Source of the DNA: Nannocystis pusilla
Lineage (GTDB): Bacteria > Myxococcota_A > Polyangia > Nannocystales > Nannocystaceae
DNA: 64,000 nt
Assembly (NCBI RefSeq): GCF_049337375.1
Contig: NZ_JBMPIV010000001.1
Direction: 5' to 3' (one strand)
Part shown: piece after piece, positions 5,347 to 60,147 of the stretch
Position numbering within the stretch: the first letter of the stretch is position 1
Layout of the letters: every line of letters starts with the position of its first letter
Program-made: the position numbers and the translations under genes
The notes under the pieces: model-generated
Seen by the model: only the letters and a program-made list of their open reading frames with translations
Database searches by the model: none
Told to the model about the DNA's origin: nothing

Positions 5347-6116
5347 GGCAGGTACGGTCTCAGGTCGGTGGACTCGACGAAGCGCTTGAGGGCGGCCAGC
5401 AGCGCCGGGCCCTCGGCGAGGCGGACGAACAGCTCGCGCTCGGCGAGCAGCTCGTCCTTCGGGAGCTTCTTGATGAAGGCCTTGGCGGCCTTGCGCGCGG
5501 TCGGGTCGAACTTGGCGGTCTGGGCCGCGAGCGCGCGCGCGGCCGTGATGCCCTCGCCGGCGGCCAGGACCTGGCTGACGAGGCCGGCCGCCAGCGCCTT
5601 CTTGGCGTTGATGCTGCGGCCGCTCAGCAGGAGGTCGCGGATGAGGCCGTTGCCGACGTCGCGGCGCAGCCGCGGGATGCCGCCGAAGCCGGGGATGATG
5701 CCGAGGCGCAGCTCGGGGAAGCAGAAGCGCGCGGTCTTCTCGGCGATCAGGACGTCGCAGGTGAGCGCGAGCTCGAAGCCGCCGCCGAAGCAGACGCCGT
5801 GGACGACGCCGACGGTGGTCAGCGGCAGCATGTCGAGGTCGTCCATGACGCCGTGGATGGCGTCGATGAACTGGCGGATCTGCGGGCCGTGCTGGTCCTT
5901 CGGCGCGTCGGAGAGGCCGCGGTAGAGCTCGCGCAGGTCGGCGCCGGCGCAGAAGCCCTGGCGCAGGCCGCTGCGCAGGATCAGCGTGTGCGCGTCGCGA
6001 TCGATCTGGTCGAGGAAGCGGCGCAGATCGGCGAGCATGGCCGTGCCGATCTCGTTGCACGGCGGCGTGGCGAGGGTCAGCTCGTACACGCCTTCGCTGT
6101 AGGTCCAGTCGATCAT
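5343..6116 (-). CDS. enoyl-CoA hydratase/isomerase (crotonase family)
   Basis: Crotonase fold motifs (FCAGADL, GGGFELALTCD). Start taken at MIDWTYSEG, which gives ATGA coupling to the upstream ligase. The longer ORF-track N-terminus is Arg-rich and looks spurious. Confidence 0.75.
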   Translation of the reverse strand: MIDWTYSEGVYELTLATPPCNEIGTAMLADLRRFLDQIDRDAHTLILRSGLRQGFCAGADLRELYRGLSDAPKDQHGPQIRQFIDAIHGVMDDLDMLPLTTVGVVHGVCFGGGFELALTCDVLIAEKTARFCFPELRLGIIPGFGGIPRLRRDVGNGLIRDLLLSGRSINAKKALAAGLVSQVLAAGEGITAARALAAQTAKFDPTARKAAKAFIKKLPKDELLAERELFVRLAEGPALLAALKRFVESTDLRPYLP

Positions 6117-7747
6117 GACGCGTAGGCCTTGTCGATCTCGGCGCGGTAGCGCTGCTCGACGGCGCGGCGGCGCAGCTTCTGGTTGGCGGTGAGGAGGCCG
6201 TTCTCGATCGTGAACGGCTCGGCCACGCGGATGAAGGCGCGGACCTTCTTGTAGTGCGGGACGCTGGCGTTGACGACCTCGAGGGCGGCGTCGATGGCGT
6301 CCTTGGGCACGTCCCCGGGGACGATGATGCCGAGGAACGGCCGCGCGTGGCCGACCAGCATGCACTGCTCGGCCTTCGGGCAGGCGGCGAGGAACTTCTC
6401 CTCGATCGGCTCGGGGGCGATGTTGTGGCCCGACTCGGGGACGAGGATGTTCTTGACGCGGCCGATGATGCGGACGTTGCCGGTGGCGTCGAGGTCGCCC
6501 TGGTCGCCGGTGTGGAACCAGCCGTCCTTGATCGCCTCGGCGGTGGCCTGCTCGCGGCCCCAGTAGCCGGCGAAGATGCCCGGGCCGCGCACCAGCAGCT
6601 CACCCTCGTCGGAGATCTTGATCTCGCAGCCCTGGATGGCGTGACCGACGTAGCCGGGGCGCACGCCGCCGGGGATGTCCATGGTGACGATCGCGGTGGT
6701 CTCGGTCAGGCCGTAGACCTGGTAGACCTGCACGCCGACCAGCTCGAACCACCACTGCGTCTCCTCGGCCAGCGCCGCCGAGCCGCAGATCAGGAACTCG
6801 AGGCTGGGGCCGATCTGCTGCTTGATCTTGCTGAAGACCAGCTTCTTGGCGGCGGCCAGCGTGAGCCTGTCCAAAAGGCCAGCCTTGCCCTCGCGCTCGG
6901 CGCGGAAGGCGGCCTGGCCGCGGTTGTACAGCGCGAGGGCGAGGCCGCCGCGCTCCGCGATCTTCTTGCCGACGCCGTTCTTGATCCGCTCGAGCACCGC
7001 CGGCACGTTGAGGTAGTAGTGCGGGTCGGCGGCGCCCATCTCGGCGACGAGGTTCTGCAGGTCGGTCGACAGCAGCAGCGGGTTGCCGCGGTACAGCTGC
7101 GTCCACAGCATGACGCGCGAGCCGGCGAAGCAGAACGGCAGGAAGTGGAACACCTTGTCGGCCCGCTTGCCGCCGGTGATGCGGTCGACGCTGCCGCGGG
7201 TCTGCGGCAGCATGTAGTCGACGTTGGCGCGGGTGAGGACGACGCCCTTGGGCTCGCCGCTGGTGCCGGAGGTGTAGATGATGGTGACCGGGTCGGTCGG
7301 CGCGACGGGGCGCGGCGGCTCGTGCACGGGCTCGCCGGCGAGGACGTCGAGCATGTCCTCGATCGGGCAGTGCTCGGGCCAGGCGTTGCGCAGGCCGGCC
7401 GCGAGCTCGGAGCCGTCGGCGATCACGAGCACCGGCGTGCAGTCCTTGACCATGACCGCCAGCTCCTTCGGATCCTGGCGACTGTAGAGCGGGACGACGA
7501 TCGCGCCCTCGAACAGGATGGCGAGGTCGGCGGCGACCCAGCGGGCCGAGTTGGGGGCGAGCAGGGCGACGCGGTCGCCCGGCTTGACGCCGTGGCTGCG
7601 CAGAAAGCCGCGCGCGTGGGCCACGAGGTGCAGCAGCTGCGCGGCCGAGGTCGGCCGGCGGTCCTTGCCGTGGAGCTCGATGAGGAGCTGATCCTCGCGG
7701 GTCTTCTGGACCGCGGCGTGGATGACTTCGAGGAAGTTGTCGCTCAT
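6113..7747 (-). CDS. AMP-dependent synthetase/ligase (fatty acyl-AMP ligase / acyl-CoA synthetase)
   Basis: IIYTSGTSGEPKGV AMP-binding motif. Start chosen at MSDNFLEV (ATG 7745-7747), overlapping the upstream stop as ATGA. Confidence 0.8.
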   Translation of the reverse strand: MSDNFLEVIHAAVQKTREDQLLIELHGKDRRPTSAAQLLHLVAHARGFLRSHGVKPGDRVALLAPNSARWVAADLAILFEGAIVVPLYSRQDPKELAVMVKDCTPVLVIADGSELAAGLRNAWPEHCPIEDMLDVLAGEPVHEPPRPVAPTDPVTIIYTSGTSGEPKGVVLTRANVDYMLPQTRGSVDRITGGKRADKVFHFLPFCFAGSRVMLWTQLYRGNPLLLSTDLQNLVAEMGAADPHYYLNVPAVLERIKNGVGKKIAERGGLALALYNRGQAAFRAEREGKAGLLDRLTLAAAKKLVFSKIKQQIGPSLEFLICGSAALAEETQWWFELVGVQVYQVYGLTETTAIVTMDIPGGVRPGYVGHAIQGCEIKISDEGELLVRGPGIFAGYWGREQATAEAIKDGWFHTGDQGDLDATGNVRIIGRVKNILVPESGHNIAPEPIEEKFLAACPKAEQCMLVGHARPFLGIIVPGDVPKDAIDAALEVVNASVPHYKKVRAFIRVAEPFTIENGLLTANQKLRRRAVEQRYRAEIDKAYAS

Positions 7748-14564: not shown

Positions 14565-14690
14565 CCCCGCGTGTCCCGAGCGGACGTGCGGCCCGGCGGT
14601 CGATGGCCGCCAGGACATGTCCGTGAGGATATGCTCGATAGGACATGATCTCGAGAGCCTGTCCATGAGGACATGCTCGCGAGATCCTAT
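14565..14690. repeat. cluster of GGACATGTCC-type palindromic units (5 half-sites) in a convergent intergenic spacer
   Basis: caGGACATGTCCgtgagg, atatgctc, GGACATGATC, gtccatgaGGACATGCTC, all between the mqnD and ABC-ATPase stops. Confidence 0.6.
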
Positions 14691-20773: not shown

Positions 20774-20784
20774 GCGGCGCTCGC

Positions 20785-20852
20785 GGGCATGCCCGATCGG
20801 GCATGTCTGTCAGGGCATGGCTGATGGGGCATGTGCTTCGCGACATGCCCTG
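20785..20852. repeat. four tandem ~14-bp GGGCATGKCY units (GGACATGTCC family) in a convergent spacer
   Basis: gggcatgtctgtca / gggcatggctgat / ggggcatgtgcttc / gcgacatgccctga. Confidence 0.6.
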
Positions 20853-20856
20853 AAGT

Positions 20857-21885
20857 TCATGGTGGGCGGTAGGCGCCGAGCCAGGCGCGGGCGTTGCCGC
20901 CGAGCACGCGGGAGACGACGGGCTCGGGGAGCGCGAGGCCGAAATAGACGCCGGGGGTGAGCGCGCCGATCCGGGCGGCGTGGCGCCAGAACTCGAACCG
21001 TTCGCGCTCGAGCAGGCCGAGGTTGGCGGCGAGCTGCAGGTCCCAGGCGCGCGCGGCGTCGAGGTCGCCGGGGGCACCGCGCGCGGTGACGAGGTCGGAG
21101 CCGAACAGGAACCGCTCGGGCTGGATCTCGATGAGGGCGCGCAGCCGGTCCCGATCCTCCTCGATGGCGGTGAAGCCGTCGACGCCGGGCAGGCCGGCGC
21201 CGTGGCTGGTGTCGACGCGCAGCCGCGGGAACTCGCGCAGGAGGCCGGCGAGGCGATCGAGGTCGGTGCGGCTGCCGCACAGGTGGGCGCAGACCAGCTC
21301 GAGGCGCGGGTGGGCCCGCAGCACGCGGGCGAGCTCGTCGCGGTAGCGCACGGTGTTGACGTGGACGAGCACGGGCACCGAGCGCTGCTCGAGCCACTCG
21401 AACAGGGAGGCGTGGGCCGGATCGTCGAGCGGGCGGGCGTGCAGCTTCTGGTGGCCGAAGTACAGCTTGACGCCGCGAGCCCCGCGTTGAAACCACTGCT
21501 CGAGCGCAGGGATGTCGACCTCGGCCGGCTCGACGGCGACGAACGGGAACAGGCGCGCGCGGTGGGCCGCGGTGGCGGCGAGCAAGGCGTCGTTGGCCTC
21601 GCGCCAGCCGTGCATGCGCGCGTCGAGGCCGGGAGCGAGGCCGAGCGCGGGATCGAGGTGCGGCGAGGCGATCACGACGGCGGCGGCGATGGCGTTGCGA
21701 TCGAGCGCGGCGAGCAGGTCGTCGACCGCGCCGCCGACGAGGTGGACGTGGACGTCGACGCGGTCGCGCGCGGCAGGTTCGTCGTCGATGCCGGTGGTGC
21801 CGTTCGGCGTCGGGACGCCGCAGGCGAGCGCCAGGCCGGCGAGCAGGAGGGCCGCGAGACGCCCCGCAGAGGCTTCAGCACTCAC
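20857..21885 (-). CDS. amidohydrolase-2 family (TIM-barrel metal-dependent hydrolase) lipoprotein
   Basis: Lipobox LALAC. HVHLVGG metal-binding His pair near the N-terminus. Amidohydrolase-like sequence. Confidence 0.6.
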   Translation of the reverse strand: MSAEASAGRLAALLLAGLALACGVPTPNGTTGIDDEPAARDRVDVHVHLVGGAVDDLLAALDRNAIAAAVVIASPHLDPALGLAPGLDARMHGWREANDALLAATAAHRARLFPFVAVEPAEVDIPALEQWFQRGARGVKLYFGHQKLHARPLDDPAHASLFEWLEQRSVPVLVHVNTVRYRDELARVLRAHPRLELVCAHLCGSRTDLDRLAGLLREFPRLRVDTSHGAGLPGVDGFTAIEEDRDRLRALIEIQPERFLFGSDLVTARGAPGDLDAARAWDLQLAANLGLLERERFEFWRHAARIGALTPGVYFGLALPEPVVSRVLGGNARAWLGAYRPP

Positions 21886-22504
21886 ACTCGTCCTCGCCTT
21901 CGTAGTTGCGGATCTCGACGCTCAGGCGATACGGGTACTCGGCGGTCGCGGTGTCGCTGTGGACGCGGACCAGGAGGGTGCCGGCGTAGTCGTCGCCGTA
22001 TCCACCGAGCGCGAGCACGCCACCGTCGGCCGTCTGCGCGGTCAAGGGCTCGTGGGTGTCGGCGCGGTAGACCTCGATGGTCATGGCGTGCTCGGGACCG
22101 GGCGCGAGCACCGGCTCCCCGCACGCGGCTCCGCACAGGCCGGCGTCATCCACCAGACCGCGCACGTAGAGGTAGTGGACGGCATAACCGAGGTCGGCGA
22201 CGTCGAAGCGGTACCAGTCGTCCTCGCCAGGGCAGAGGTAGGCGTCGGTGACCTCGTGGTAGGCGGACCACTCGCTGACGCCGCTCCAGGCGACGTCGGT
22301 CGCGTCGTCGGGCTCGTCGTTGGGCTCCCAGGCGTCGTTGAGCGGGCAGGCGGCGGCGCCGGTGGTCGAGGCGGCGGCGGAGGTGCCGGGATCGTCGCCG
22401 TCCCGCGACGCGAGGTCGCAGGCGGCGAGCGCGGAGAGGATGGCGACATGTCTCAAGAGACATGTCGAACGCGCGGCGGCCGAGGTCGGGACTGGCGTCG
22501 TCAT
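21875..22504 (-). CDS. lipoprotein with EPND-motif (pre-peptidase C-terminal-like) domain
   Basis: LSALAAC lipobox and WEPNDEPDDATDV motif. Part of the signal-peptide coding region is a perfect 24-bp GACATGTC palindrome. Confidence 0.5.
   Translation of the reverse strand: MTTPVPTSAAARSTCLLRHVAILSALAACDLASRDGDDPGTSAAASTTGAAACPLNDAWEPNDEPDDATDVAWSGVSEWSAYHEVTDAYLCPGEDDWYRFDVADLGYAVHYLYVRGLVDDAGLCGAACGEPVLAPGPEHAMTIEVYRADTHEPLTAQTADGGVLALGGYGDDYAGTLLVRVHSDTATAEYPYRLSVEIRNYEGEDECEC
22444..22467. repeat. perfect 24-bp palindrome CGACATGTCTCAAGAGACATGTCG inside the signal-peptide coding region
   Basis: Reverse complement is identical. Encodes STCLLRHV of the lipoprotein N-region. Confidence 0.7.
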
Positions 22505-23008
22505 CGGTGATCCGGAGGTCACGCAAACGTGGGCCCGCGATCGCGGCCGGCAATCGAGTCGGGTCGCGCAGACCGAGGCGAGGGGACAGTCGCAGATCCG
22601 GCGACGAAGGGACCGAGCGAGCCAAGAACACCGGCGCAGGCGCCGCCCCACGAGGCGCGGAGACGGGATGTCCGAAAGGCCAGGCAGCGAGCCGGCGCGC
22701 CGCGCTTCCCGGATGTCCGAAGGGGCAGGCGATCCATGTGGACGACGAGGGGTGGAGCTGCGGGATCGGGATGTTCCGGAGAGACAGGCGGACGCGGCGG
22801 CAGCCGGAGCAGGCGCAGGATGTCCCGAGCTACAGGTCGCAGCGGCCGCGGCCGGAGCGCGCGCGAGATGTCCGAAGAGGCAGGTCAGCGGGGGGAACTG
22901 CGAGGAAGGGCGCGAGGAGCGTCGGCCCGCGCCGTCTCGCTCCGAGCAGGGAACGGTGCGGGGCGTCGGCCGAGTGACGCCCCTCGCGGGCCGCGGCGGG
23001 GCCGTCGC

Positions 23009-24577
<1,569 letters not shown>

Positions 24578-24602: not shown

Positions 24603-24620
24603 TAGCAGCCGGCGTGCCAG
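24603..24620 (-). promoter_or_regulatory. candidate σ54 (-24/-12) promoter for the flotillin gene
   Basis: Minus strand reads cTGGCACgccggCTGCt, i.e. GG-N10-GC with correct spacing. About 28 nt upstream of the flotillin ATG and directly downstream of a σ54 activator gene. Confidence 0.5.
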
Positions 24621-24761
24621 GCGCCGTGGCGGGCCCGCCGCGGAGTCGTCACGCGGGTGAACGGCGGACGACGCGGTCGCGACACGAGCGGATATGCCTC
24701 AAATTGAGGCAGGTGGATCGTTACGATGCACCTGCAGCAAACGGCGCGGCGCGGCCCGAGG

Positions 24762-26312
24762 TCAGGCGCGGATCTTGAGGGTCTTGATCTTGCGCAGGAG
24801 GGTGGCGCGGCCGATGCCCATGGCCCGGGCGGCGCCGCTGCGGTTGCCGTCGTGGGCGGCCAGCACGGCCTCGATGTAGAGCTTCTCCATCTCGTTCCAC
24901 GACAGCCGGGCGAGGTCCGCCCCGCCGCGACCGGCCTTGCGGCCCGCGGCCGGCAGCTCGCGCGGGTCGGCGGGCAGCGGCAGATCGGCGACCTCGATGG
25001 CGTCGCCGACGCTGAGGACGACCGCGCCCTCGATGCAGTTCTCGAGCTCGCGGATGTTGCCGGGCCAGCTGTGGGCGTGCAGCCGCGCGAGCGCGGGCGG
25101 GGAGAAGCGCACGACCTGCTTGTTGTGGCGCTGGGCGAAGCCGGCGAGGAAGTGGTAGGCGAGCTGCTCGAGGTCCTCGGGGCCGCGCTCGCGCAGCGGC
25201 GGCATGGCCAGCGAGAGCACGCGCAGGCGGTAGTAGAGGTCCTCGCGGAAGCGCTGACGGGCGACCATGTCCTCGAGGTTGCGGTTGGTGGCGGCGAGGA
25301 TCCGGACGTCGACCTTGAGGGTCTTGCGGCCGCCGACCCGCTCGAACTCGCGGTCCTGCAGGACGCGCAGCAGCTTGCTCTGGAGCGTGAGCGGGACCTC
25401 GCCGAGCTCGTCGAGGAAGACGGTGCCGCCGTCGGCAGCCTCGAACTTGCCGACGCTGCGCTGGTCGGCCCCGGTGTACGCGCCGCGCTCGTGGCCGAAG
25501 AGCTCGTTTTCGATCAAGGTGGCGGGCAGCGAGGCGCAGTCGACGGCGACGAACGGCCGCCCGGCGCGCGGGCTGTTGTAGTGGATCGCCCGCGCGATCA
25601 GCCCCTTGCCGGTGCCGGTCTCGCCGGTGATGAGGACGGTCGCGTCGGTGCCGGCCGCCCGTGTCACGAGATCGTAGACGCGTCTCATCCGCGCGCCGCC
25701 GCCGACCACGCCGTTGAAGCGGTAGCGCAGCGGTCCGCCGGTGGGGGCCCGCAGCTGGCCGTAAAGACTGGTGCTCTCGACCAGCATGGCGACCTGGCTG
25801 GCGAGCGCGCGCAGCAAGGCCTCGTCGTCGTCGTCGAAGGCGGCGCCCTTCTTGTTGAGCAGCTGGAGGACGCCGAGGATCTCGCCGGCGCGATCGAGGA
25901 CCGGGACGCACAGCATCGAGCGCGTGGCGTAGTTGGTGGCGCGATCGATGGCGCCGTAAAACCGCGGGTCGCCCTCGGTGTGCGAGAGGTTGATGGCCTC
26001 GCCGGTGCGCGCGACGTGGCCGGCGATGCCCTGGCCGACCTTGAGCCGGATCTCGCGCAGCTCCGGCAAGTGCGCGGCCTTGCTGAACAGCTCGCCGCGG
26101 GCCCGGTCGACCAGGTAGAAGGTGCCGCGGTCGGCGTCCATGGCCTTCGTGACGGTGTCGATGACCTGCGCCAGCAAGGCGTCGAGGTCGACCTCGCGGC
26201 GCACCAGCTCGCCGAGCGCGAACAGCACGCTGTCGCGATCGACCCGCGTGCGCCGCGGCGGTGTCTCCCCGATGCTCGGCTTCGCCGCTCTCTTGCGCGC
26301 TGCTGGCTCCAT
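24762..26312 (-). CDS. σ54-dependent transcriptional activator (GAF sensor – AAA+ σ54-interaction – Fis-type HTH)
   Basis: GAF domain at the N-terminus. Walker A GETGTGKG, GAFTGA-like ESELFGHERGAYTGA, Walker B GTVFLDE. C-terminal HTH GIGRATLLRKIK. Confidence 0.85.
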   Translation of the reverse strand: MEPAARKRAAKPSIGETPPRRTRVDRDSVLFALGELVRREVDLDALLAQVIDTVTKAMDADRGTFYLVDRARGELFSKAAHLPELREIRLKVGQGIAGHVARTGEAINLSHTEGDPRFYGAIDRATNYATRSMLCVPVLDRAGEILGVLQLLNKKGAAFDDDDEALLRALASQVAMLVESTSLYGQLRAPTGGPLRYRFNGVVGGGARMRRVYDLVTRAAGTDATVLITGETGTGKGLIARAIHYNSPRAGRPFVAVDCASLPATLIENELFGHERGAYTGADQRSVGKFEAADGGTVFLDELGEVPLTLQSKLLRVLQDREFERVGGRKTLKVDVRILAATNRNLEDMVARQRFREDLYYRLRVLSLAMPPLRERGPEDLEQLAYHFLAGFAQRHNKQVVRFSPPALARLHAHSWPGNIRELENCIEGAVVLSVGDAIEVADLPLPADPRELPAAGRKAGRGGADLARLSWNEMEKLYIEAVLAAHDGNRSGAARAMGIGRATLLRKIKTLKIRA

Positions 26313-35555: not shown

Positions 35556-35584
35556 GCCGCGCCCGTAGGTGAGAGATGGCGTGA

Positions 35585-35615
35585 CCGCCAGGACATGTCC
35601 TGGCGGTCATGCTGC
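35585..35615. repeat. 24-bp perfect palindrome ACCGCCAGGACATGTCCTGGCGGT (GGACATGTCC family)
   Basis: Sits 30 nt downstream of the PBP stop in a convergent spacer. Confidence 0.7.
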
Positions 35616-38537: not shown

Positions 38538-40595
38538 ATGGCGACGAACGAAGGGAGCCGCGACTCCGGCCAGGCTGGCGAGGATCGATCGGTGCCGCGG
38601 TTGACCGCGGTCATCGTGGATCCTCCGGACTCGCTCCCGTCGACGCCCGTGGTCTCGCACGAGCTGGGCGCCGACGACGACCTCGCAGAGGAGTATGAGG
38701 CAGCGCTCGAGAACCAGGTCTCGGCGGCCCACTTCTCGATCGAGCTCGGACGCCCGTCCGGCGAGGTCGAGCTCGACGGGCAGCCGACCAGCGTGGACGG
38801 CGAGCCCCAGGCCGAAGACGAGGACACCGTCGAGCGTACCGCCGCCAAGAGCCTCAAGGCCAAGGCGACGGCGGCCAAGCGCGACGCGCTGTTCGGCCAG
38901 GTGCTGGCCGACCGCTACCGGATCCTCGACCTCATCGGCAAGGGCGGGATGGGCAAGGTCTACCTCGCCGAGCACGTGGCGCTCGGCAAGAAGGTGGCCG
39001 TCAAGGTCCTGAACCCGGCCTACACCAACCGCCCCGACCAGGTGAAGCGGTTCCTCCGCGAGGCCCGGGCGGCGTCGACGATCGGCCACGAGAACGTCAT
39101 CGACATCACCGACTTCGGCGCGATGCCCAACGGCCAGGTGTTCTTCGCCATGGAGCACCTGCAAGGCGAGGACCTCGGCAAGATCCTCAAGAAGGGGCCG
39201 ATGGCGTGGGCGCGGGCCCGCCGGGTGCTGCTGCAGATCTGCCGCGCGCTGCAGGCCGCCCACGCGCACGGGATCATCCACCGGGACATGAAGCCGGAGA
39301 ACGTCTTCCTGATCCAGCGCAACGGGATTCGCGACTTCGTCAAGGTGCTCGACTTCGGGATCGCCAAGTTCCTCGAGGAGAACCGCGACGGCGGCACGAA
39401 CCCGCTGACGCAGGTGGGCGCGCTGATCGGCACGCCCGAGTACATGGCGCCGGAGCAGATCCACGGCGACCCGGCCGACCAGCGCATGGACATCTATGCG
39501 GTCGGCTGCATCCTTTATCAGCTGCTCACCGGCAACCTCCCGTTCACCGACAAGACGATGTACGGGGTGCTGTCGCAGCAGGTGAACGCCAAGCCGGTGC
39601 CGCCGCGGCAGCTGGCGCCCGAGGCCGACATCCCGGTCGAGGTCGAGGCGGTCATCCTGAAGGCGATGGAGAAGGACAAGACGCAGCGTTACCAGACGAT
39701 GGGCGAGCTGATCGAAGCCATCGTCGCGACGCCGCGCGGGGCCGCCGGGGACGTCGGGCGGACCACCACGACCAATCTCGAGGCGGCGGCCCAGGCGGCG
39801 CGCCTGGCCGTCGGGGTCAGCATGCCGGCGGGCGTGGCCGTGCCCAACCCCGTGACGCCGGACGACTCGTTGCTGACGCAAGGACTCAGCAGCGCGTCGG
39901 GGCTGCGGCCGACGTCGCTGTCGCTGCCGTGGCGCGGCGGGACGATGGACGCGCAGATGTTGACGCGCCTGGTGATCGGCCTCGGCGCGGCGGTGCTGGT
40001 GCTGGTGGTCGGCCTGGTGTGCGCGCTCAGCCGCAGCGACGATCCGAAGCCGCAGCCGGTCGACAAGCCGAGCGAGGTCGCGGCGGTCACGGCCGGCTCG
40101 CCCGAGGCGCCGAAGCCGGTCGAGACGCCGGAGACCAAGATCGAGGCGCCGCCGGAGACGAAGGTCGAGCCGACGCCGGAGCCGAAGAAGGCCGACGACG
40201 TGCCGATCGTGGTCGAAGACGAGGCGAAGAAGGACGCGGGCAAGAAGGCCACCGAGCCCAAGAAGACGACCACGGTCAAGAAGAGCGAGCCGGCCGCGCC
40301 GAAGGGCGAAGAGGCGTCGGCCAACTGGCCCGAGGTGCTGGGGCCGATGGAGCGCTCGCAGGCGCTGAAGAGCTACCGCGCCGATTTCGAGACCTGCCGG
40401 ACGATCAGCACGCCGAAGGGCAAGACCTACAAGCTGCGGCTCAAGGTCGACGGCCCGAAGGGGCGCGTGACCGAGGCGACGTCCGACGACACGAGCGCGG
40501 AGGCGAAGTGCCTGGCGCGGGCCTTCAAGACCAAGGTCCGGTTCGTCAACACCCGCAAGTCGCCGCAAGAGTTCACGATCGTCGTGCCGCTCTGA
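38538..40595 (+). CDS. Hanks-type Ser/Thr protein kinase with TM and C-terminal periplasmic domain
   Basis: GKGGMGKVY, AVKVL, HRDMKPENVF, DFG, APEQ motifs. TM helix LVIGLGAAVLVLVVGLV. Lys/Pro/Glu-rich linker. Confidence 0.85.
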   Translation: MATNEGSRDSGQAGEDRSVPRLTAVIVDPPDSLPSTPVVSHELGADDDLAEEYEAALENQVSAAHFSIELGRPSGEVELDGQPTSVDGEPQAEDEDTVERTAAKSLKAKATAAKRDALFGQVLADRYRILDLIGKGGMGKVYLAEHVALGKKVAVKVLNPAYTNRPDQVKRFLREARAASTIGHENVIDITDFGAMPNGQVFFAMEHLQGEDLGKILKKGPMAWARARRVLLQICRALQAAHAHGIIHRDMKPENVFLIQRNGIRDFVKVLDFGIAKFLEENRDGGTNPLTQVGALIGTPEYMAPEQIHGDPADQRMDIYAVGCILYQLLTGNLPFTDKTMYGVLSQQVNAKPVPPRQLAPEADIPVEVEAVILKAMEKDKTQRYQTMGELIEAIVATPRGAAGDVGRTTTTNLEAAAQAARLAVGVSMPAGVAVPNPVTPDDSLLTQGLSSASGLRPTSLSLPWRGGTMDAQMLTRLVIGLGAAVLVLVVGLVCALSRSDDPKPQPVDKPSEVAAVTAGSPEAPKPVETPETKIEAPPETKVEPTPEPKKADDVPIVVEDEAKKDAGKKATEPKKTTTVKKSEPAAPKGEEASANWPEVLGPMERSQALKSYRADFETCRTISTPKGKTYKLRLKVDGPKGRVTEATSDDTSAEAKCLARAFKTKVRFVNTRKSPQEFTIVVPL

Positions 40596-41902
40596 TGCGC
40601 GTCGCGTTCAGCACGCTCGGCTGTCGTCTCAACCAGTTCGAGTCCGACGCCCTCGAGCAGATGGCCCGCGCGGCCGGCCACACCGTGGTCGACGCCGAGG
40701 CCGCGCCCGAGGTCGTGATCGTCAACACCTGCACGATCACCCACGAGGCCGACGCCGACGCGCGCCAACACGTGCGCCGGGCCGCGCGCGCCGGGGCGAA
40801 GGTGGTGGTCACCGGCTGCTGGGCGACGGCCGCCCCCGCGGAGGCGGCGGCGCTGCCGGGGGTGACGCTGGTGGTCGGCAACCGCGAGAAGGAGCGGCTG
40901 TTCGAGGTGCTCGGAGAGACATGTTCGGAGGGACATGTCCCGGAGATCCACGTGGCCCCGGTCGACCTGCTGCGGCGCGTCCGGGCGGCCCGCCTGCGCC
41001 CGGCCGCCGACCCGCGGCGCAGCCGGGCGTACCTGAAGATCCAGGACGGCTGCGACTACCGCTGCAGCTTCTGCATCGTGCCGCAGGTGCGCGGGCGCAG
41101 CGTGAGCGTGGCGCCCGCGGAGGTGCGGGCGCAGCTGGACGAGCTGGTCGCCGCGGGGGTGCCCGAGGTGGTGCTCACCGGGGTCCACCTCGGGATCTAC
41201 GGCCGCGACCTGCGGCCGCGCAGCTCGTTGTCGTCGCTGATCGCGGAGCTGCTGCCGCAGCTCGGGCCGGCGCGGCTGCGCCTCGGTTCGGTCGATCCGC
41301 ACGAGGTCGACGATCACCTGGTGACGCTGCTGGCGACGGATCCGCGGCTGTGTCCGTACCTCCACTTGCCGGTGCAGAGCGGCGACGACGACACGCTGCG
41401 GCGCATGCGGCGGGCGCACACGGCCGCCGACCTGCAGGCGCTGGTGCCTCGGCTGGCCGCGGCGGTGCCGGGGATCGGCATCGGCACCGACGTGATCGTC
41501 GGCTTCCCCGGCGAGTCGGACGAGGCGTTCGCGGCCACGCACGCGCTGCTGGCCGCGCTGCCGCTGGCCTACCTGCACGTGTTCGCCTATTCGCCGCGCG
41601 CGGGCACCGACGCCGCCTGTCTCTCGGGGCAGGTCGACGCGGCGGTCAAGCAGCGGCGCGGCGCGAAGTTGCGGGCGCTGTCGGCGGCGAAGCAGGAGGC
41701 GTTCGCGGCGGCGCAGATCGGGCGCACCCTGCCGGTGGTGATGCACCGGTCGCGTCACCGGCGGACGGGGCTGCTGGTCGGTCGGGCCGGCAACGGCTTG
41801 ACGGTGCTGGCGGCCGGCGACGACGCGCTGCTGGGCCGGGCCGGCCAGATCGAGGTCGAGCGCGCCGAGGGGCCGCTCGCGGTCGGTCGGCTGGTCGCGT
41901 GA
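40595..41902 (+). CDS. mtaB: radical-SAM methylthiotransferase (MiaB/RimO/MtaB family; MtaB-like)
   Basis: MTTase N-domain Cys (GCRLNQFES...NTCTIT...TGCWA). Radical-SAM CDYRCSFC. TRAM-like C-terminus. Start overlaps the kinase stop (TGATG). Confidence 0.8.
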   Translation: MRVAFSTLGCRLNQFESDALEQMARAAGHTVVDAEAAPEVVIVNTCTITHEADADARQHVRRAARAGAKVVVTGCWATAAPAEAAALPGVTLVVGNREKERLFEVLGETCSEGHVPEIHVAPVDLLRRVRAARLRPAADPRRSRAYLKIQDGCDYRCSFCIVPQVRGRSVSVAPAEVRAQLDELVAAGVPEVVLTGVHLGIYGRDLRPRSSLSSLIAELLPQLGPARLRLGSVDPHEVDDHLVTLLATDPRLCPYLHLPVQSGDDDTLRRMRRAHTAADLQALVPRLAAAVPGIGIGTDVIVGFPGESDEAFAATHALLAALPLAYLHVFAYSPRAGTDAACLSGQVDAAVKQRRGAKLRALSAAKQEAFAAAQIGRTLPVVMHRSRHRRTGLLVGRAGNGLTVLAAGDDALLGRAGQIEVERAEGPLAVGRLVA

Positions 41903-42044: not shown

Positions 42045-42082
42045 GTCGGCGCCGAGCTGGCCGCGAGGACATGTCCTGGCGG
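42045..42082. repeat. GGACATGTCC-centred extended palindrome in a convergent spacer
   Basis: gccgcgaGGACATGTCCtggcggc lies between the mtaB stop and the MBL-hydrolase stop. Confidence 0.65.
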
Positions 42083-42091
42083 CCAGTCGGC

Positions 42092-44796: not shown

Positions 44797-45308
44797 GGCA
44801 GGCCTCGCGGGGGCAGAAGAGAGGGCGACGGCGTCCGGGGAGGCGAGAGCCGATGAGATGTCCGCAAGGACAGGTCGCGGGCACCTGGCCCGGGGGACAG
44901 GCGAGCGGGCTCGGCCGTCGCGGGCTCGGCGAGCTCGGCGGTGGACGACGAGGGCTCCGAGCCTGTGAGCTCGGCCGTCGCGGACCGGGCGAGCTCGGCG
45001 GGGGAAGACGAGGGCTCCGGGCCTGTGAGCTCGGCCGTCGCGGACTGGGCGGGCTCGGCGGTGGAAGACGAGGGCTCCGGGCCTGTGAGCTCGGCCGTCG
45101 CGGACTGGGCGGGCTCGGCGGTGAACGACGATGGCTCGGCGGTCGGGCCTGTGAGCTCGGCCGTCGCGGGCTGTGCGGTGGACGGCTCGCTAGCGGTCGC
45201 GCCTGCGAGCTGGGCGGCGAGCTCGGCCGTTGCCGACGACTCGCGCGCGGGAGCGGCCGGGCCTGTCCCGGGGGACAGCTCGCGGGCGCGGGGTTCAGGC
45301 GCGGGCAT
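44793..45308 (-). CDS. putative acidic Ser/Pro/Thr-rich protein with 4.5 tandem 20-aa repeats (TAELTGPEPSSSTAEPAQSA)
   Basis: Minus-strand frame over the 60-bp tandem repeat has very high GC3. ATGA-coupled to the downstream hcnA-like start. Overlaps the upstream ooxA-like stop by 14 nt. Could alternatively be a non-coding repeat. Confidence 0.3.
   Translation of the reverse strand: MPAPEPRARELSPGTGPAAPARESSATAELAAQLAGATASEPSTAQPATAELTGPTAEPSSFTAEPAQSATAELTGPEPSSSTAEPAQSATAELTGPEPSSSPAELARSATAELTGSEPSSSTAELAEPATAEPARLSPGPGARDLSLRTSHRLSPPRTPSPSLLPPRGLP
44901..45180. repeat. 60-bp tandem direct repeat, ~4.5 copies
   Basis: gagctcggcggtggaMgacgagggctccgRgcctgtgagctcggccgtcgcggacYgggc repeated head-to-tail from ~44901 to 45180. 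Flanked by ctgtccc-gg-gggacag inverted repeats at 44886-44902 and 45263-45280. Confidence 0.8.
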
Positions 45309-49724: not shown

Positions 49725-49790
49725 CCGACGAACAGGTGTCCTCGAGGACAGGTGCGCGAGGACATGGCCGATGGGGCAGGTGTCAACCCT
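49725..49790. repeat. GACAGGTG/GGACATGG half-site cluster (GGACATGTCC family) in a convergent spacer
   Basis: gaacaggtgtcctcgaggacaggtgcgcgaggacatggccgatggggcaggtgtcaacc between the maf stop and the lipoprotein stop. Confidence 0.55.
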
Positions 49791-53521: not shown

Positions 53522-54321
53522 GCCCCGGCTCCGAGCGTGCACTGCCAGCCGACCGCGAGGTGCGGCTCGAGGGCGACGCGCGCCGGGGCGCCGGCGGCCA
53601 GCGCCTCGACCAGGGCGAGCGCGGCGGCGCACGGGTTCTGGGCCAGGGCGGCCGGGATCGGGCGCGGCGCGGCGAGCATGTCGCTGGGGCCATGTTCGAG
53701 GCGACATGTCCTCGCGGGCATGTTGCCGGGGCCAGGCGCCGACAGGGCGAAGGCGGCGGCGAACGGGTCCCAGCGGCGGCCGGCGGCCAGCGGCTCGGGC
53801 AGCGGCTCCTCGGCGATCACGAGCACCACGTCGCCCTCTCCGGCGGCCACGAGGGCGGCGCACTCGACGAGGCCCATGGCGAGGGTGCTGCGGCCGGCCG
53901 ACAGCGCGGCGTTGCCGGCCCGGTTGCCGGTGGCGATCGAGACGTAGCCGGCGGCCGTGTTGTGGACGCTGTTGTGGAACTTGGTCGGCGACAGCGGCTC
54001 GCCGGCGACGAGCAGGGCGCCGAGGAGGTCGAGGGTGGTGCGGATCTCGCCGTAGACGGAGCCGTAGACGAGGGTGGCGGCGGTTCGGTCGACGCCGCCG
54101 TCCTGCAGCGCCTGGGCCGCGACCTCGGCGGCCATGCGGGTGAGCAGGCTGGTGCGCCGGCGCATCATCGGCGGCAGCAGCTCGGCTCTGGGGGCGGAGG
54201 GCTCGGTCGGCGACGCCTGTCCTTCGGGCCAGGTGTCGGGCCGGGCCCGCCAGGCGGCGAGGTCGGGGTAGCCTGGCGTCCAGAAGCCGAGGCCGCGGAC
54301 GGTGAAGGCGAGCGCGCTCAT
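53518..54321 (-). CDS. β-ketoacyl synthase-like chain-length-factor protein (no active-site Cys)
   Basis: KS N-terminal-domain-like sequence lacking the TACSSS Cys. Position directly after a bona fide KAS. Contains a GGACATGTCC-type element in frame. Confidence 0.6.
   Translation of the reverse strand: MSALAFTVRGLGFWTPGYPDLAAWRARPDTWPEGQASPTEPSAPRAELLPPMMRRRTSLLTRMAAEVAAQALQDGGVDRTAATLVYGSVYGEIRTTLDLLGALLVAGEPLSPTKFHNSVHNTAAGYVSIATGNRAGNAALSAGRSTLAMGLVECAALVAAGEGDVVLVIAEEPLPEPLAAGRRWDPFAAAFALSAPGPGNMPARTCRLEHGPSDMLAAPRPIPAALAQNPCAAALALVEALAAGAPARVALEPHLAVGWQCTLGAGA
53686..53760. repeat. GGACATGTCC-family element lying inside the CLF-like coding sequence (in frame)
   Basis: catgttcgaggcGACATGTCCtcgcgggcatgttgcc encodes ...GNMPARTCRLEHGPSDML... 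within the protein. Confidence 0.5.

Positions 54322-57174: not shown

Positions 57175-60147
<2,973 letters not shown>

What the first reader, a model, noticed from the sequence alone, without database searches (positions are those of the whole stretch)
22505..23008. 500-bp intergenic array of GGATGTCCGAAGRGGCAGGY repeats between flotillin and lipoprotein genes
Six or more copies of a ~20-bp unit occur in one unusually long spacer. Each unit is a half palindrome ATGTCCGAAG plus GGCAGGY, with irregular 43-66-bp spacing. This looks like an iterated protein-binding site array (enhancer or nucleoid-protein landing pad) or a decayed tandem of the GGACATGTCC element. It is the only place in the window where the units are co-oriented in series.
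Basis: seen in the sequence. Interest (0 to 1): 0.55.

Follow-up and report, generated by a model that had tools for sequence, protein, structure and literature searches.

The report
Variable cluster of genus-specific palindromic repeats
The spacer holds five co-oriented, partly decayed copies of a short palindromic repeat (core TGTCC-N4-GGACA) that is scattered through Nannocystis genomes, mostly just after genes, and whose copy number here differs between strains; it is a REP-like repeat cluster, not an enhancer for the neighbouring sigma-54 activator.

Summary
The 504-nt non-coding spacer 22505-23008 has five co-oriented ~18-nt units. A sixth sits in the last codons of the upstream gene. 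This is far above chance (6 matches against 0.09 expected).

Read on the minus strand, which is the sense strand of both flanking genes, the unit is CCTGTCYCTYCGGACATC. Its core is TGTCC-N4-GGACA.

That core, and its head-to-head form GGACATGTCC, is hugely over-represented in the whole window. It is present in other Nannocystis genomes and absent from other myxobacterial loci. It is about 7 times denser between genes than within them. It occurs in convergent but not divergent spacers, and sometimes in frame inside genes.

At this locus the copy number varies between six Nannocystis genomes, from 3 to 8. One strain has a 42-nt tandem array.

The adjacent GAF-sigma-54 activator already has a conserved -24/-12 promoter and upstream palindromes in front of the flotillin-like gene. 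The repeat array is therefore not its enhancer.

Best reading: a tandemly amplified, partly decayed cluster of an apparently undescribed REP-like dispersed palindrome. It lies in the 3' region of the flotillin-like transcript. Its molecular role is not resolved: RNA or transcription boundary, protein landing site, or selfish DNA.

The parts
23024..23041 (-). Unit 0: TCTGTCCCTTCGGACAGC, a perfect 6-bp hairpin with a 4-nt loop. It lies inside the last codons (SVPSDS) of the flotillin-like gene, 13 nt before its stop codon.
   Evidence: (-8.6 kcal/mol on the minus strand, -11.9 on the plus strand). The arms are kept and the loop varies in all six orthologues.
22867..22884 (-). Unit 1: CCTGCCTCTTCGGACATC. 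Its left arm has decayed from TGTCC to TGCCT.
   Evidence: It is a weak hairpin (-1 to -2.2 kcal/mol on the sense strand). The unit plus its 3' spacer CGGACATCTCGCGCGCGCTCCGGCCGCGGCC matches the 42-nt repeat of N. pusilla exactly.
22819..22836 (-). Unit 2: CCTGTAGCTCGGGACATC, strongly degenerate (4 mismatches).
   Evidence: (family D3, 48-nt spacing).
22770..22788 (-). Unit 3: CCTGTCTCTCCGGAACATC, with a 1-nt insertion in the right arm.
22728..22761 (-). Remnant of a GATCCAC...GTGGATC hairpin between units 3 and 4. It is strong in N. exedens (12-bp stem) and RBIL2 and decayed in this window.
   Evidence: Read from the sequences and the alignment. Coordinates. No separate fold was run.
22712..22729 (-). 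Unit 4: CCTGCCCCTTCGGACATC.
   Evidence: It folds better on the + strand (-9.6 kcal/mol, using a G-U pair) than on the sense strand (-3.1). Identical unit aligned at this position in N. pusilla and RBIL2 only.
22667..22684 (-). Unit 5: CCTGGCCTTTCGGACATC, the unit nearest the lipoprotein gene. A unit occupies this position in all six genomes.
   Evidence: unit f: pairwise identity 0.81.
22598..22649 (-). Conserved non-repeat block, GGGCGGCGCCTGCGC...GGCTCGCYCGG..CCTTC. It includes the only terminator-like hairpin in the spacer (22632-22645, CGGCGCCTGCGCCG followed by GTGTTCTTGG).
   Evidence: 33 of 54 columns invariant.
22525..22553 (-). Conserved promoter-like element TTGMCN-N17-ACGTTT, about 20 nt upstream of the lipoprotein ATG. 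It is not a sigma-54 promoter.
   Evidence: The consensus sigma-70 scan found nothing here, so this is inferred from conservation only.
22445..22466 (-). A 22-nt perfect palindrome GACATGTCTCTTGAGACATGTC of the same family. It lies inside the lipoprotein signal-peptide codons (STCLLRHV) and is written with rare A/T-ending codons.
   Evidence: -14 kcal/mol; a motif copy is kept at this position in five orthologues.
24604..24619 (-). Context, not part of the array: the sigma-54 -24/-12 promoter of the flotillin-like gene. It would drive transcription into the array.
24695..24732 (-). Context: two palindromes (GGTGCATCGTAACGATCCACC and TGCCTCAATTTGAGGCA) placed where the activator's UAS is expected.
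   Evidence: The UAS function is inferred.

Best explanation
The array is a locus-specific tandem cluster of a short dispersed palindromic repeat peculiar to Nannocystis.

Shown:
- The family core is the 14-mer TGTCC-N4-GGACA.
- Copies abutted head to tail give GGACATGTCC and a 14-nt period.
- The oriented 18-mer form is (A)CCTGTCCCTTCGGACATC(CC).
- Here five such units sit in a C-rich, G-poor spacer (on the sense strand), each followed by 27-40 nt of spacer. The cluster lies downstream of the sigma-54-driven flotillin-like gene and upstream of the lipoprotein gene's own conserved promoter-like element.
- Copy number differs between strains.
- In this strain most copies have decayed. The left arm is mutated while CGGACATC is kept.

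Inferred:
- The cluster arose and changes size by duplication and loss of whole unit-plus-spacer blocks, through slippage or unequal recombination.
- The family behaves like REP or other small interspersed palindromes. It is kept or spread by sequence-specific recognition of its arms and is tolerated mainly just past gene ends.
- Where intact, it forms a small stem-loop in the sense transcript.
- Its most likely local effect is a modest boundary at the 3' end of the flotillin-like transcript. The boundary would combine hairpins with a C-rich tract, giving 3'-end protection or Rho-type termination. This would separate the flotillin-like gene from the independently promoted lipoprotein gene.
For: Reality of the array and the family:
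- The unit gives 6 matches against 0.09 expected.
- TGTC-N6-GACA occurs at 12 sites against about 0.35 expected. There are only 2 sites at N5 and none at N4, N7 or N8.
- TGTCC is the only A/T-containing arm enriched among 5-N4-5 palindromes.
- GGACATGTCC is the most over-represented 10-mer, 8 against 0.05 expected.
- The sequence around GGACAT has a 14-nt periodic consensus.

Lineage:
- The window is Nannocystis: the flotillin-like protein is 99% identical to that of N. pusilla Na p29.
- The motif is present in most Nannocystis-assigned loci and absent, bar one locus, from the non-Nannocystis myxobacterial loci.

Copy-number variation at this locus:
- Units between the flotillin stop and the conserved block: 5 in the window, 8 in N. 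pusilla, 5 in RBIL2, 4 in N. exedens, 3 in N. punicea, 3 in N. radixulma.
- TRF finds a 42-nt period with 5.5 copies at 90% matches in N. pusilla, and a 48-nt period with 2.3 copies in N. exedens.
- The alignment shows whole-unit indels.
- Unit cores have 0.71-0.83 pairwise identity, against 0.49-0.54 for the DNA between units.

Placement:
- Site density is 3.57 per kb in intergenic DNA and 0.51 per kb in coding DNA.
- Three of 5 convergent spacers carry sites, and a fourth holds a variant array. None of 7 divergent spacers does.
- Most intergenic sites lie within roughly 110 nt of a stop codon.
- Strong family hairpins sit just past stops at 35578-35612 (-30 kcal/mol), 20782-20856 (-45) and 42054-42088 (-26).

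Independent metagenome sample:
- At least 120 contigs carry the 18-mer.
- In the high-GC contigs, 35 copies are intergenic, 18 are in genes on the sense strand and 7 are antisense.
- Similar co-oriented arrays with 34-55-nt periods lie between co-directional genes, for example in L096, L083 and L139.
- About 2:1 of copies share the strand of neighbouring genes.
- The flanks are A-unit-CC, with C 0.46 and G 0.30. The window spacer has C 0.437 and G 0.306 on the sense strand.

Transcription context:
- A conserved sigma-54 promoter lies in front of the flotillin-like gene.
Against: - The hairpins are weak. The canonical unit folds at only -5.8 kcal/mol and the window's units at -1 to -4 on the sense strand.
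- The whole spacer folds no better than shuffled sequence on either strand (z -0.26 and +0.46).
- There is no covariation in the arms. Paired cells are 80.5% against 81.0% in shuffles, and compensated double changes are no more frequent than in shuffled DNA. Pairing as such is therefore not shown to be selected. Sequence identity is what is kept.
- Several decayed units would pair better on the antisense strand.
- The family also occurs inside real genes. Classical REPs do not.
- The orientation bias is only about 2:1 and rests on crude gene calls.
- The higher conservation of unit cores is partly an alignment artefact, because repeats align with each other.
- There are no expression data, and no partner protein such as a RAYT was sought or found.
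Confidence: 0.55

Rival explanations
1. The repeats are DNA-level landing sites for an abundant sequence-specific DNA-binding protein of Nannocystis. This could be a nucleoid-associated or architectural protein, or a methyltransferase-linked 'highly iterated palindrome' in the manner of cyanobacterial HIP1. The array would then be a high-occupancy patch that may loop or insulate the lipoprotein promoter, which has family sites on both sides.
For: - The arm sequence is fixed, the spacing is strict (N4 or 0) and the centre is free to vary. This is the pattern of a dimer binding site.
- There is no compensatory change in the arms.
- The hairpins are weak.
- Half-sites alternate in orientation with a 14-bp period.
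- The motif is kept inside genes at the cost of rare codons. Examples are the MtaB linker ETCSEGHVPEIH and the signal-peptide palindrome at 22445-22466.
- In decayed units the right half CGGACATC is kept better than the left.
- HIP1 is likewise a lineage-specific palindrome that is 15-300-fold over-represented within and between genes (PMC5861425).
Against: - A pure DNA site should not care about transcription direction. Yet the asymmetric 18-mer tends to share the strand of its neighbouring genes, and sites avoid divergent promoter-bearing spacers.
- No candidate protein has been identified.
- Some family members are extended into long perfect hairpins. That points to structure.
Confidence: 0.25
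2. The array is an upstream activating sequence (enhancer) bound by the adjacent GAF-sigma-54 activator.
For: - The activator gene lies two genes upstream, at 24762-26312(-).
- The units are repeated and partly palindromic, and they lie about 110-370 nt upstream of the lipoprotein start.
Against: - The lipoprotein gene has no -24/-12 element.
- The only good sigma-54 match in this neighbourhood precedes the flotillin-like gene. It is conserved across Nannocystis and has different palindromes at UAS distance.
- The motif is genome-wide, lies in promoterless convergent spacers and inside genes, and is absent from all 7 divergent spacers.
- Copy number varies from 3 to 8 between close strains.
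Confidence: 0.03
3. The array is a decayed coding repeat. It would be the remnant of a proline-rich (PVxxDI-type) tail or of a small ORF. The same 18-mer encodes PVPSDI in frame in many Nannocystis-like genes.
For: - In high-GC metagenome contigs, 17 of 18 sense-strand copies inside genes lie in the frame that reads PVPSDI. They often form repeats with 21-, 36-, 39- or 48-nt periods, as in L138, L098, L073 and L082.
- The flotillin-like protein itself ends ...SVPSDSQAER, using unit 0.
- The 42-nt unit of N. pusilla would read PVSPDIPRALRPRP.
Against: - There is no GC3 signal across the spacer.
- The spacings of 45, 58, 49 and 48 nt here, and 42, 40, 42, 42 and 43 nt in N. pusilla, break any reading frame.
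- The flotillin stop codon is conserved in five genomes.
- The family's 14-nt-period arrays and the long palindromes in convergent spacers cannot be coding.
Confidence: 0.07
4. The array is a structured cis-regulatory RNA or small RNA, for example a 5' leader of the lipoprotein mRNA or an antisense RNA from the purine-rich + strand.
For: - The spacer is long.
- It has strong strand asymmetry, with AT skew up to +0.5 on the + strand.
- Two decayed units fold better on the + strand.
Against: - There are no Rfam matches, even at E up to 1.
- The fold energy equals that of shuffled sequence on both strands.
- The conserved promoter-like element lies downstream of the array.
- The array length is not conserved between strains.
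- There is no promoter-like site on either strand.
Confidence: 0.05
5. The motif is a DNA-uptake-type signal, like DUS or USS, enriched for uptake of DNA from the same genus. Inverted pairs downstream of genes would arise as a side effect.
For: - The short motif is genus-specific and highly over-represented, and it occurs both in and between genes.
- Inverted pairs lie just downstream of genes.
- From general knowledge, the same holds for Neisseria DUS.
Against: - The strict N4 or 0 spacing of half-sites, the 14-nt tandem arrays and the strand tendency are not features of DUS or USS.
- Sequence-specific DNA uptake has not, to my knowledge, been reported for myxobacteria.
- Nothing here tests it.
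Confidence: 0.05

Closest known systems
REP / BIME elements (repetitive extragenic palindromes of enterobacteria and pseudomonads)
   Same: - Short palindromic units specific to a lineage and present in many copies.
- Concentrated just past gene ends, between convergent genes and within operons.
- Found singly or in clusters whose copy number differs between strains.
- Half-sites alternate in orientation within arrays.
   Different: - The core is only 14-18 nt, against 20-40 nt for REPs, and forms a 5-bp stem of about -6 kcal/mol.
- There is no GTAG or CGTC head.
- Arrays include a head-to-tail 14-nt period and co-oriented 34-58-nt periods.
- Copies also occur in frame inside genes.
- No RAYT transposase has been linked to it.
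HIP1 (highly iterated palindrome GCGATCGC of cyanobacteria; PMC5861425)
   Same: - A lineage-specific palindrome over-represented by one to two orders of magnitude.
- It occurs within and between genes and is apparently kept at the DNA level irrespective of codon preference.
- Its function is unresolved.
   Different: - HIP1 is a single octamer with no fixed-spacing partner, no tandem arrays and no reported preference for gene 3' ends.
- The Nannocystis motif is about 7 times denser between genes and forms arrays.
MIRU-type intergenic minisatellites (VNTR) of mycobacteria (from general knowledge)
   Same: - Tandem repeats of 40-50 nt in the spacers of co-directional genes.
- Oriented with the genes.
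- Copy number differs between strains.
   Different: - MIRUs are not built around a dispersed 14-nt palindrome.
- They typically carry small ORFs that overlap the neighbouring genes. The spacings here break any frame.
Rickettsia palindromic elements (RPE) (from general knowledge)
   Same: Palindromic repeats that are also found in frame inside protein-coding genes, adding tolerated peptide segments.
   Different: - RPEs are about 100-150 nt and are clear insertions.
- In the one case tested here (MtaB linker), the motif coincides with a variable linker and only a 4-residue length difference.
Sigma-54 enhancer (UAS) arrays for bacterial enhancer-binding proteins
   Same: Repeated, partly palindromic sites near an activator gene.
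   Different: - There is no -24/-12 promoter downstream of the array.
- The real sigma-54 promoter and its candidate UAS lie in front of the flotillin-like gene and have an unrelated sequence.
- The motif is genome-wide.

Membership tests
REP/BIME | Imperfect palindrome repeated many times in one genome | tested here: met
   There are 12 perfect TGTC-N6-GACA sites in 64 kb against about 0.35 expected. GGACATGTCC occurs 8 times against 0.05 expected. The motif is present in other Nannocystis loci.
REP/BIME | Strictly extragenic location, mostly at gene 3' ends | tested here: inconclusive
   The motif is 7-fold enriched between genes. It occurs in convergent but not divergent spacers. However, 29 sites with at most one mismatch lie in real coding sequence.
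REP/BIME | Unit length of 20-40 nt with a stable stem-loop | tested here: not met
   The core is 14-18 nt with a 5-bp stem of -5.8 kcal/mol. Only some loci extend it to 13-15-bp stems.
REP/BIME | Conserved GTAG or CGTC tetranucleotide at one end (PMC3733652) | tested here: not met
   The flank consensus is A-CCTGTCC...GGACATC-CC, with no GTAG or CGTC.
REP/BIME | Associated RAYT (Y1 transposase) gene flanked by the repeats | not tested
Sigma-54 UAS / enhancer | A -24/-12 (TGGCAC-N5-TTGC) promoter downstream of the sites | tested here: not met
   No match at 2 or fewer mismatches precedes the lipoprotein gene. The match at 24604-24619 precedes the flotillin-like gene.
Sigma-54 UAS / enhancer | Sites restricted to the activator's target promoters | tested here: not met
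   The motif is dispersed through the window, in convergent spacers and in genes.
Sigma-54 UAS / enhancer | Binding by the cognate activator | not testable with these tools
   This needs EMSA or footprinting.
Intergenic minisatellite / VNTR | Head-to-tail repeats of tens of nucleotides | tested here: met
   TRF finds a 48-nt period with 2.4 copies in the window, a 42-nt period with 5.5 copies at 90% matches in N. pusilla, and a 48-nt period with 2.3 copies in N. exedens.
Intergenic minisatellite / VNTR | Copy number differs between strains at the same locus | tested here: met
   There are 3 to 8 units across six genomes, with whole-unit indels.
HIP-like highly iterated palindrome | Over-representation both within and between genes, beyond what codon usage gives | tested here: met
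   Five perfect sites lie in coding sequence, where a rough codon-frequency estimate of mine (not a tool result) gives about 0.03. They use rare T/A-ending codons.
HIP-like highly iterated palindrome | Cognate methyltransferase or other recognising protein | not testable with these tools
   This needs a methylome or pull-down.
Intrinsic terminator | G+C-rich stem followed by a T run | tested here: not met
   None of the units qualifies. The only terminator-like site in the spacer is the non-repeat hairpin at 22632-22645.
Known RNA family (Rfam) | Match to a covariance model | tested here: not met
   There were no matches at the gathering thresholds in the window or at E up to 1 in 22300-23200.

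The most novel reading that the evidence does not exclude
TGTCC-N4-GGACA / GGACATGTCC is a genus-wide 'highly iterated palindrome' system in Nannocystis, maintained by selection.
- It is kept in spacers and also in genes, at the cost of rare codons.
- It is biased to the transcribed strand and to gene ends.
- It is able to grow into 14-nt and 34-58-nt arrays.

This would imply a dedicated, still unidentified recognition protein acting on DNA or RNA. It would also imply a function in transcript boundaries or nucleoid organisation, comparable in scope to HIP1 or REP/RAYT but mechanistically distinct.
Probability: 0.25. Interest if true: 0.65.

Novelty: new variant of a known kind. Interest (0 to 1): 0.4.

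Why it matters
- Locally, it corrects the regulatory picture. The GAF-sigma-54 activator most likely drives the flotillin-like gene from a conserved -24/-12 promoter. The repeat array is not its enhancer.
- More broadly, Nannocystis genomes (11-13 Mb) appear to carry a dense repeat family. Searches of the paper library found no description of it.
- The family marks gene ends, varies in copy number between close strains and also turns up in frame in protein linkers.
- It could serve as a strain-typing marker (VNTR).
- It is a source of assembly and annotation errors.
- It gives an entry point to how transcripts end in high-GC myxobacteria, where canonical terminators are scarce.
- It is a second test case for the unresolved question of why some bacterial lineages keep highly iterated palindromes.

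Tried and rejected
- **Rfam.** Searches at the gathering thresholds over the whole window and at E up to 1 over the region found nothing.
- **Whole-spacer RNA folding.** Both strands fold like shuffled sequence.
- **Sigma-70 promoter scan of the spacer.** No hit. One terminator-like hairpin was found, and it is not a repeat unit.
- **Exact-protein look-up of the flotillin-like protein.** The protein is not on record.
- **Covariation tests.**
  - Double-mismatch sites are no more often compensated than in shuffled DNA.
  - Pair counts on 29 units equal the shuffles. A first run used a mis-registered structure string.
- **General hairpin enrichment (any 5-N4-5 palindrome).** Rejected. Only the TGTCC arms stand out.
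- **Viral contigs.** One match to the double decamer, which is uninformative.
- **Start-codon idea.** I considered that GGACATGTCC marks start codons, because some copies have SD-like sequences upstream. The gene map places most of these copies just after stop codons, so I dropped it.
- **In-frame mobile insertion.** For MtaB, homologues show a variable linker with only a 4-residue length difference. This is not a clean 14-residue insertion.
- **Literature.** Searches for a described Nannocystis or myxobacterial REP-like family found nothing relevant.
- **PadR-type (ATGT-N8-ACAT), LexA-type (CTGT-N8-ACAG) and FNR-type (5-4-5) operators.** These came from memory only. I set them aside because the site density is far too high for a specific regulator.
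Full report
**1. What is at the locus**

The window is 72% G+C. The protein encoded at 23009-24577(-) is 99% identical to its orthologue in Nannocystis pusilla Na p29. It is 89-98% identical in five other Nannocystis genomes.

A GC3 frame plot shows strong coding signal on both sides and none between about 22470 and 22950.

The flanking genes are as follows.
- Left gene, 21875-22504(-): a lipoprotein with an MTTP...RSTCLLRHVAILSALAAC signal peptide.
- Right gene: an SPFH/flotillin-like protein. This rests only on a weak match to E. coli QmcA (E 7e-4), with no Pfam hit.
- Next gene upstream, 24762-26312(-): a GAF-sigma-54 activator.

All three genes are on the minus strand. The spacer 22505-23008 therefore lies downstream of the flotillin-like gene and upstream of the lipoprotein gene.

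**2. The observation**

Four of them fall in 22667-23042.

Direct-repeat and tandem-repeat tools recover the same copies and a 48-nt period at 22770-22886.

On the minus strand the units read as follows.
- CCTGCCTCTTCGGACATC (22867-22884)
- CCTGTAGCTCGGGACATC (22819-22836)
- CCTGTCTCTCCGGAACATC (22770-22788)
- CCTGCCCCTTCGGACATC (22712-22729)
- CCTGGCCTTTCGGACATC (22667-22684)
- TCTGTCCCTTCGGACAGC (23024-23041), which lies inside the last codons of the flotillin-like gene

Start-to-start spacings are 157, 48, 49, 58 and 45 nt. The array is real, but only two copies are clean.

**3. The unit belongs to a genome-wide family**

- The core is TGTCC-N4-GGACA. TGTC-N6-GACA occurs at 12 sites in the window against about 0.35 expected. 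There are only 2 sites at N5 and none at N4, N7 or N8.
- Among all 5-N4-5 palindromes, TGTCC is the only A/T-containing arm that stands out.
- GGACATGTCC is the most over-represented 10-mer in the window, 8 against 0.05 expected.
- The average sequence around every GGACAT shows TG(T)CC five positions upstream and G(T)CC directly downstream. This is a chain with a 14-nt period.
- Such chains are visible at 14604-14690, 20784-20850 (a GGGCATGCCC variant), 40911-40952, 49737-49781 and 53672-53735.
- The motif is present in most Nannocystis-assigned loci. All but one of the fetched loci from Myxococcus, Corallococcus, Pyxidicoccus and other non-Nannocystis Myxococcota lack it. The exception, L034 (Pyxidicoccus fallax), has two.

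**4. Where the family sits**

I built a GC3-based gene map.
- Sites with at most one mismatch occur at 3.57 per kb between genes and 0.51 per kb within genes.
- Three of five convergent spacers carry sites, and a fourth carries the variant array.
- None of seven divergent spacers does (Fisher p 0.045, small numbers).
- Most intergenic sites lie within roughly 110 nt of a stop codon.
- Some members are extended into strong stem-loops immediately after stops: 35578-35612 at -30 kcal/mol, 20782-20856 at -45 and 42054-42088 at -26.

This placement fits elements tolerated or used at gene ends. It does not fit promoter-proximal regulator sites.

**5. The same locus in relatives**

Downstream of the orthologous flotillin-like stop codon, units are co-oriented in every genome but differ in number.

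| Genome | Units |
|---|---|
| N. pusilla Na p29 | 8 |
| Window | 5 |
| Nannocystis sp. RBIL2 | 5 |
| N. exedens | 4 |
| N. punicea | 3 |
| N. radixulma | 3 |

- N. pusilla has a 42-nt tandem array of 5.5 copies at 90% matches. N. exedens has a 48-nt array of 2.3 copies.
- N. bainbridge has 14-nt-spaced units and a different downstream gene.
- More distant Nannocystis genomes have neither the array nor the same neighbouring gene.
- The alignment shows insertions and deletions of whole unit-plus-spacer blocks.
- Unit cores have 0.71-0.83 mean pairwise identity. The DNA between units has 0.49-0.54. The adjacent coding sequence and a conserved non-repeat block (22598-22649) both have 0.81. Part of the unit-core figure is an alignment effect, because repeats align to each other.
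- Next to the lipoprotein gene, the conserved block and a TTGMCN-N17-ACGTTT element (22525-22553) are kept in all six genomes. This suggests the lipoprotein gene has its own promoter. That is inferred, and the sigma-70 consensus scan found nothing.

**6. The enhancer idea**

- The only good -24/-12 match near this locus is TGGCACGCCGGCTGCT at 24604-24619(-), 27 nt before the flotillin-like ATG.
- The motif search finds it in the seven closest loci. TGGCAC-type -24 elements are visible by eye in more distant ones, L007, L008, L012 and L013, with a TGGCGC variant in L009.
- Two unrelated palindromes lie 75-130 nt upstream of it, where an activator's binding sites are expected.
- Nothing comparable precedes the lipoprotein gene.

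Together with the genome-wide spread of the motif, this leaves very little room for the array being the activator's enhancer.

**7. Independent sample**

Roughly half are low-GC and probably chance matches. I did not test that.
- In the contigs with at least 68% G+C, 35 non-redundant copies are intergenic, 18 lie in genes on the sense strand and 7 are antisense.
- Several contigs show co-oriented arrays with 34-55-nt periods between co-directional genes. Examples are L096, L083 and L139. They look like the array studied here.
- About two-thirds of intergenic copies share the strand of their neighbours (18 of 27 and 18 of 26). Within genes the count is 18 sense against 7 antisense. This is suggestive, not decisive.
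- The flanks add A before the unit and CC after it. The surrounding 40 nt are C-rich and G-poor on the unit's strand (C 0.46, G 0.30). The window spacer is the same (C 0.437, G 0.306).
- Seventeen of the 18 sense-strand copies inside genes are in the frame that reads PVPSDI. They often form proline-rich linker repeats, as in L138, L098 and L073.
- In the window, sites inside genes also use one frame (xxT GTC Cxx xxG GAC Axx). They fall in a kinase activation-loop insert, an MtaB inter-domain linker and similar places.
- In MtaB the motif is written with four rare A/T-ending codons. It coincides with a variable linker that is 4 residues longer in this clade. It is not a clean insertion.

**8. 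Structure or sequence?**

- The canonical unit folds into a 5-bp hairpin of only -5.8 kcal/mol (z -2.95). The window's units fold at -1 to -4 kcal/mol on the sense strand, and one reaches -9.6 on the antisense strand.
- The spacer as a whole folds like shuffled sequence.
- The arms do not covary. On 29 distinct units, 80.5% of cells pair, against 81.0% after shuffling.
- Compensated double changes in 420 kb of Nannocystis-like DNA are no commoner than in shuffled DNA.
- Specific arm sequences with a strict spacing are therefore what is conserved. This points to sequence-specific recognition by a protein that binds, copies or protects the element. Pairing for its own sake is not what is selected.
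- The long perfect hairpins at some loci show that structure is also used.

**9. Conclusion and mechanism**

Shown:
- The array is a tandemly amplified, partly decayed, strain-variable cluster.
- Its units belong to a short dispersed palindromic repeat found across Nannocystis loci.
- It lies downstream of a gene with a sigma-54-type promoter.

Inferred:
- It changes size by slippage or unequal recombination.
- Where intact, the units form small sense-strand hairpins in a C-rich, G-poor tract.
- The most likely local consequence is a modest transcript boundary between the flotillin-like gene and the separately promoted lipoprotein gene, through 3'-end protection or Rho-type termination.

The main rival is a DNA-level landing site for an abundant protein, as proposed for HIP1. 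A purely selfish, functionless repeat cannot be excluded for this decayed copy.

Searches of the paper library found no description of such a family in Nannocystis or other myxobacteria.

Noticed in passing
window 24604-24619(-) and 24695-24732(-): A sigma-54 -24/-12 promoter (TGGCACGCCGGCTGCT) lies 27 nt upstream of the flotillin-like gene and is conserved across Nannocystis loci. Two palindromes (GGTGCATCGTAACGATCCACC, TGCCTCAATTTGAGGCA) sit at UAS distance. The adjacent GAF-sigma-54 activator probably controls the flotillin-like gene.
   Followed up: partly
window 22445-22466: A perfect 22-nt palindrome GACATGTCTCAAGAGACATGTC lies inside the lipoprotein signal-peptide codons. It is written with rare A/T-ending codons (ACA, TGT, TTG, AGA, CAT). 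A motif copy is kept at this position in five orthologues.
   Followed up: partly
window 14604-14690, 20784-20850, 49737-49781: Head-to-tail arrays with a 14-nt period, of the form (TGTCC-N4-GGACA)n or the variant (TGCCC-N4-GGGCA)n. They lie in spacers just past stop codons and fold to between -20 and -45 kcal/mol.
   Followed up: partly
window 35578-35612 and 42054-42088: Near-perfect palindromes of 28-30 nt, GACCGCCAGGACATGTCCTGGCGGTC, with GGACATGTCC at the apex. They lie 6-26 nt past stop codons in convergent spacers and appear to be a longer subfamily of the same element.
   Followed up: partly
window 57826-57848 (in gene 57175-60147+): The motif lies inside a Ser/Thr kinase gene, at the start of a low-complexity insert after DFG. 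The Pfam kinase match breaks at residue 215. It encodes AVPRDMSE.
   Followed up: partly
window 40911-40952 (in MtaB gene 40595-41902+): Three 14-nt motif periods lie in the linker between the UPF0004 and radical-SAM domains. They encode ETCSEGHVPEIH with four rare codons. The linker is 4 residues longer than in more distant homologues.
   Followed up: yes
window 53672-53735 (in gene 53518-54321-): About four degenerate motif periods lie inside a ketoacyl-synthase-like gene, with a local dip in GC3.
   Followed up: no
window 22598-22649(-): A strongly conserved non-repeat block (GGGCGGCGCCTGCGC...GGCTCGCYCGG..CCTTC) lies between the array and the lipoprotein promoter-like element. It contains the only terminator-like hairpin of the spacer. 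It could be the real flotillin terminator or a regulator site.
   Followed up: partly
window 44909-45177: A 60-nt tandem repeat (4.4 copies, 90% matches) lies in a 638-nt spacer that also has family units at both ends (44857-44875, 45264-45277).
   Followed up: no
metagenome loci L138 (about 6000-6220), L098 (about 460-620), L073, L082: The 18-mer is repeated in frame in proline-rich linkers (PVPSDI / PVPSDTSPAPPTR and similar) of Nannocystis-like proteins. Periods are 21-48 nt, and the rare codon CCT is kept.
   Followed up: partly
locus L025 (Myxococcales MAG): Five TGCC-N6-GGCA sites occur in 13 kb, with none of the Nannocystis motif. This may be a different lineage-specific palindrome with the same geometry.
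   Followed up: no
locus L007 7450-7495: A heptamer tandem repeat (CCATGAC / GCCGTGAC) overlaps the flotillin-like stop codon in a more distant Nannocystis, where the array is absent.
   Followed up: no
window 23571-23735: A 66-nt tandem repeat (2.5 copies, 82% matches) lies inside the flotillin-like gene, corresponding to its Ala/Glu-rich repeat region (presumably coiled coil).
   Followed up: no
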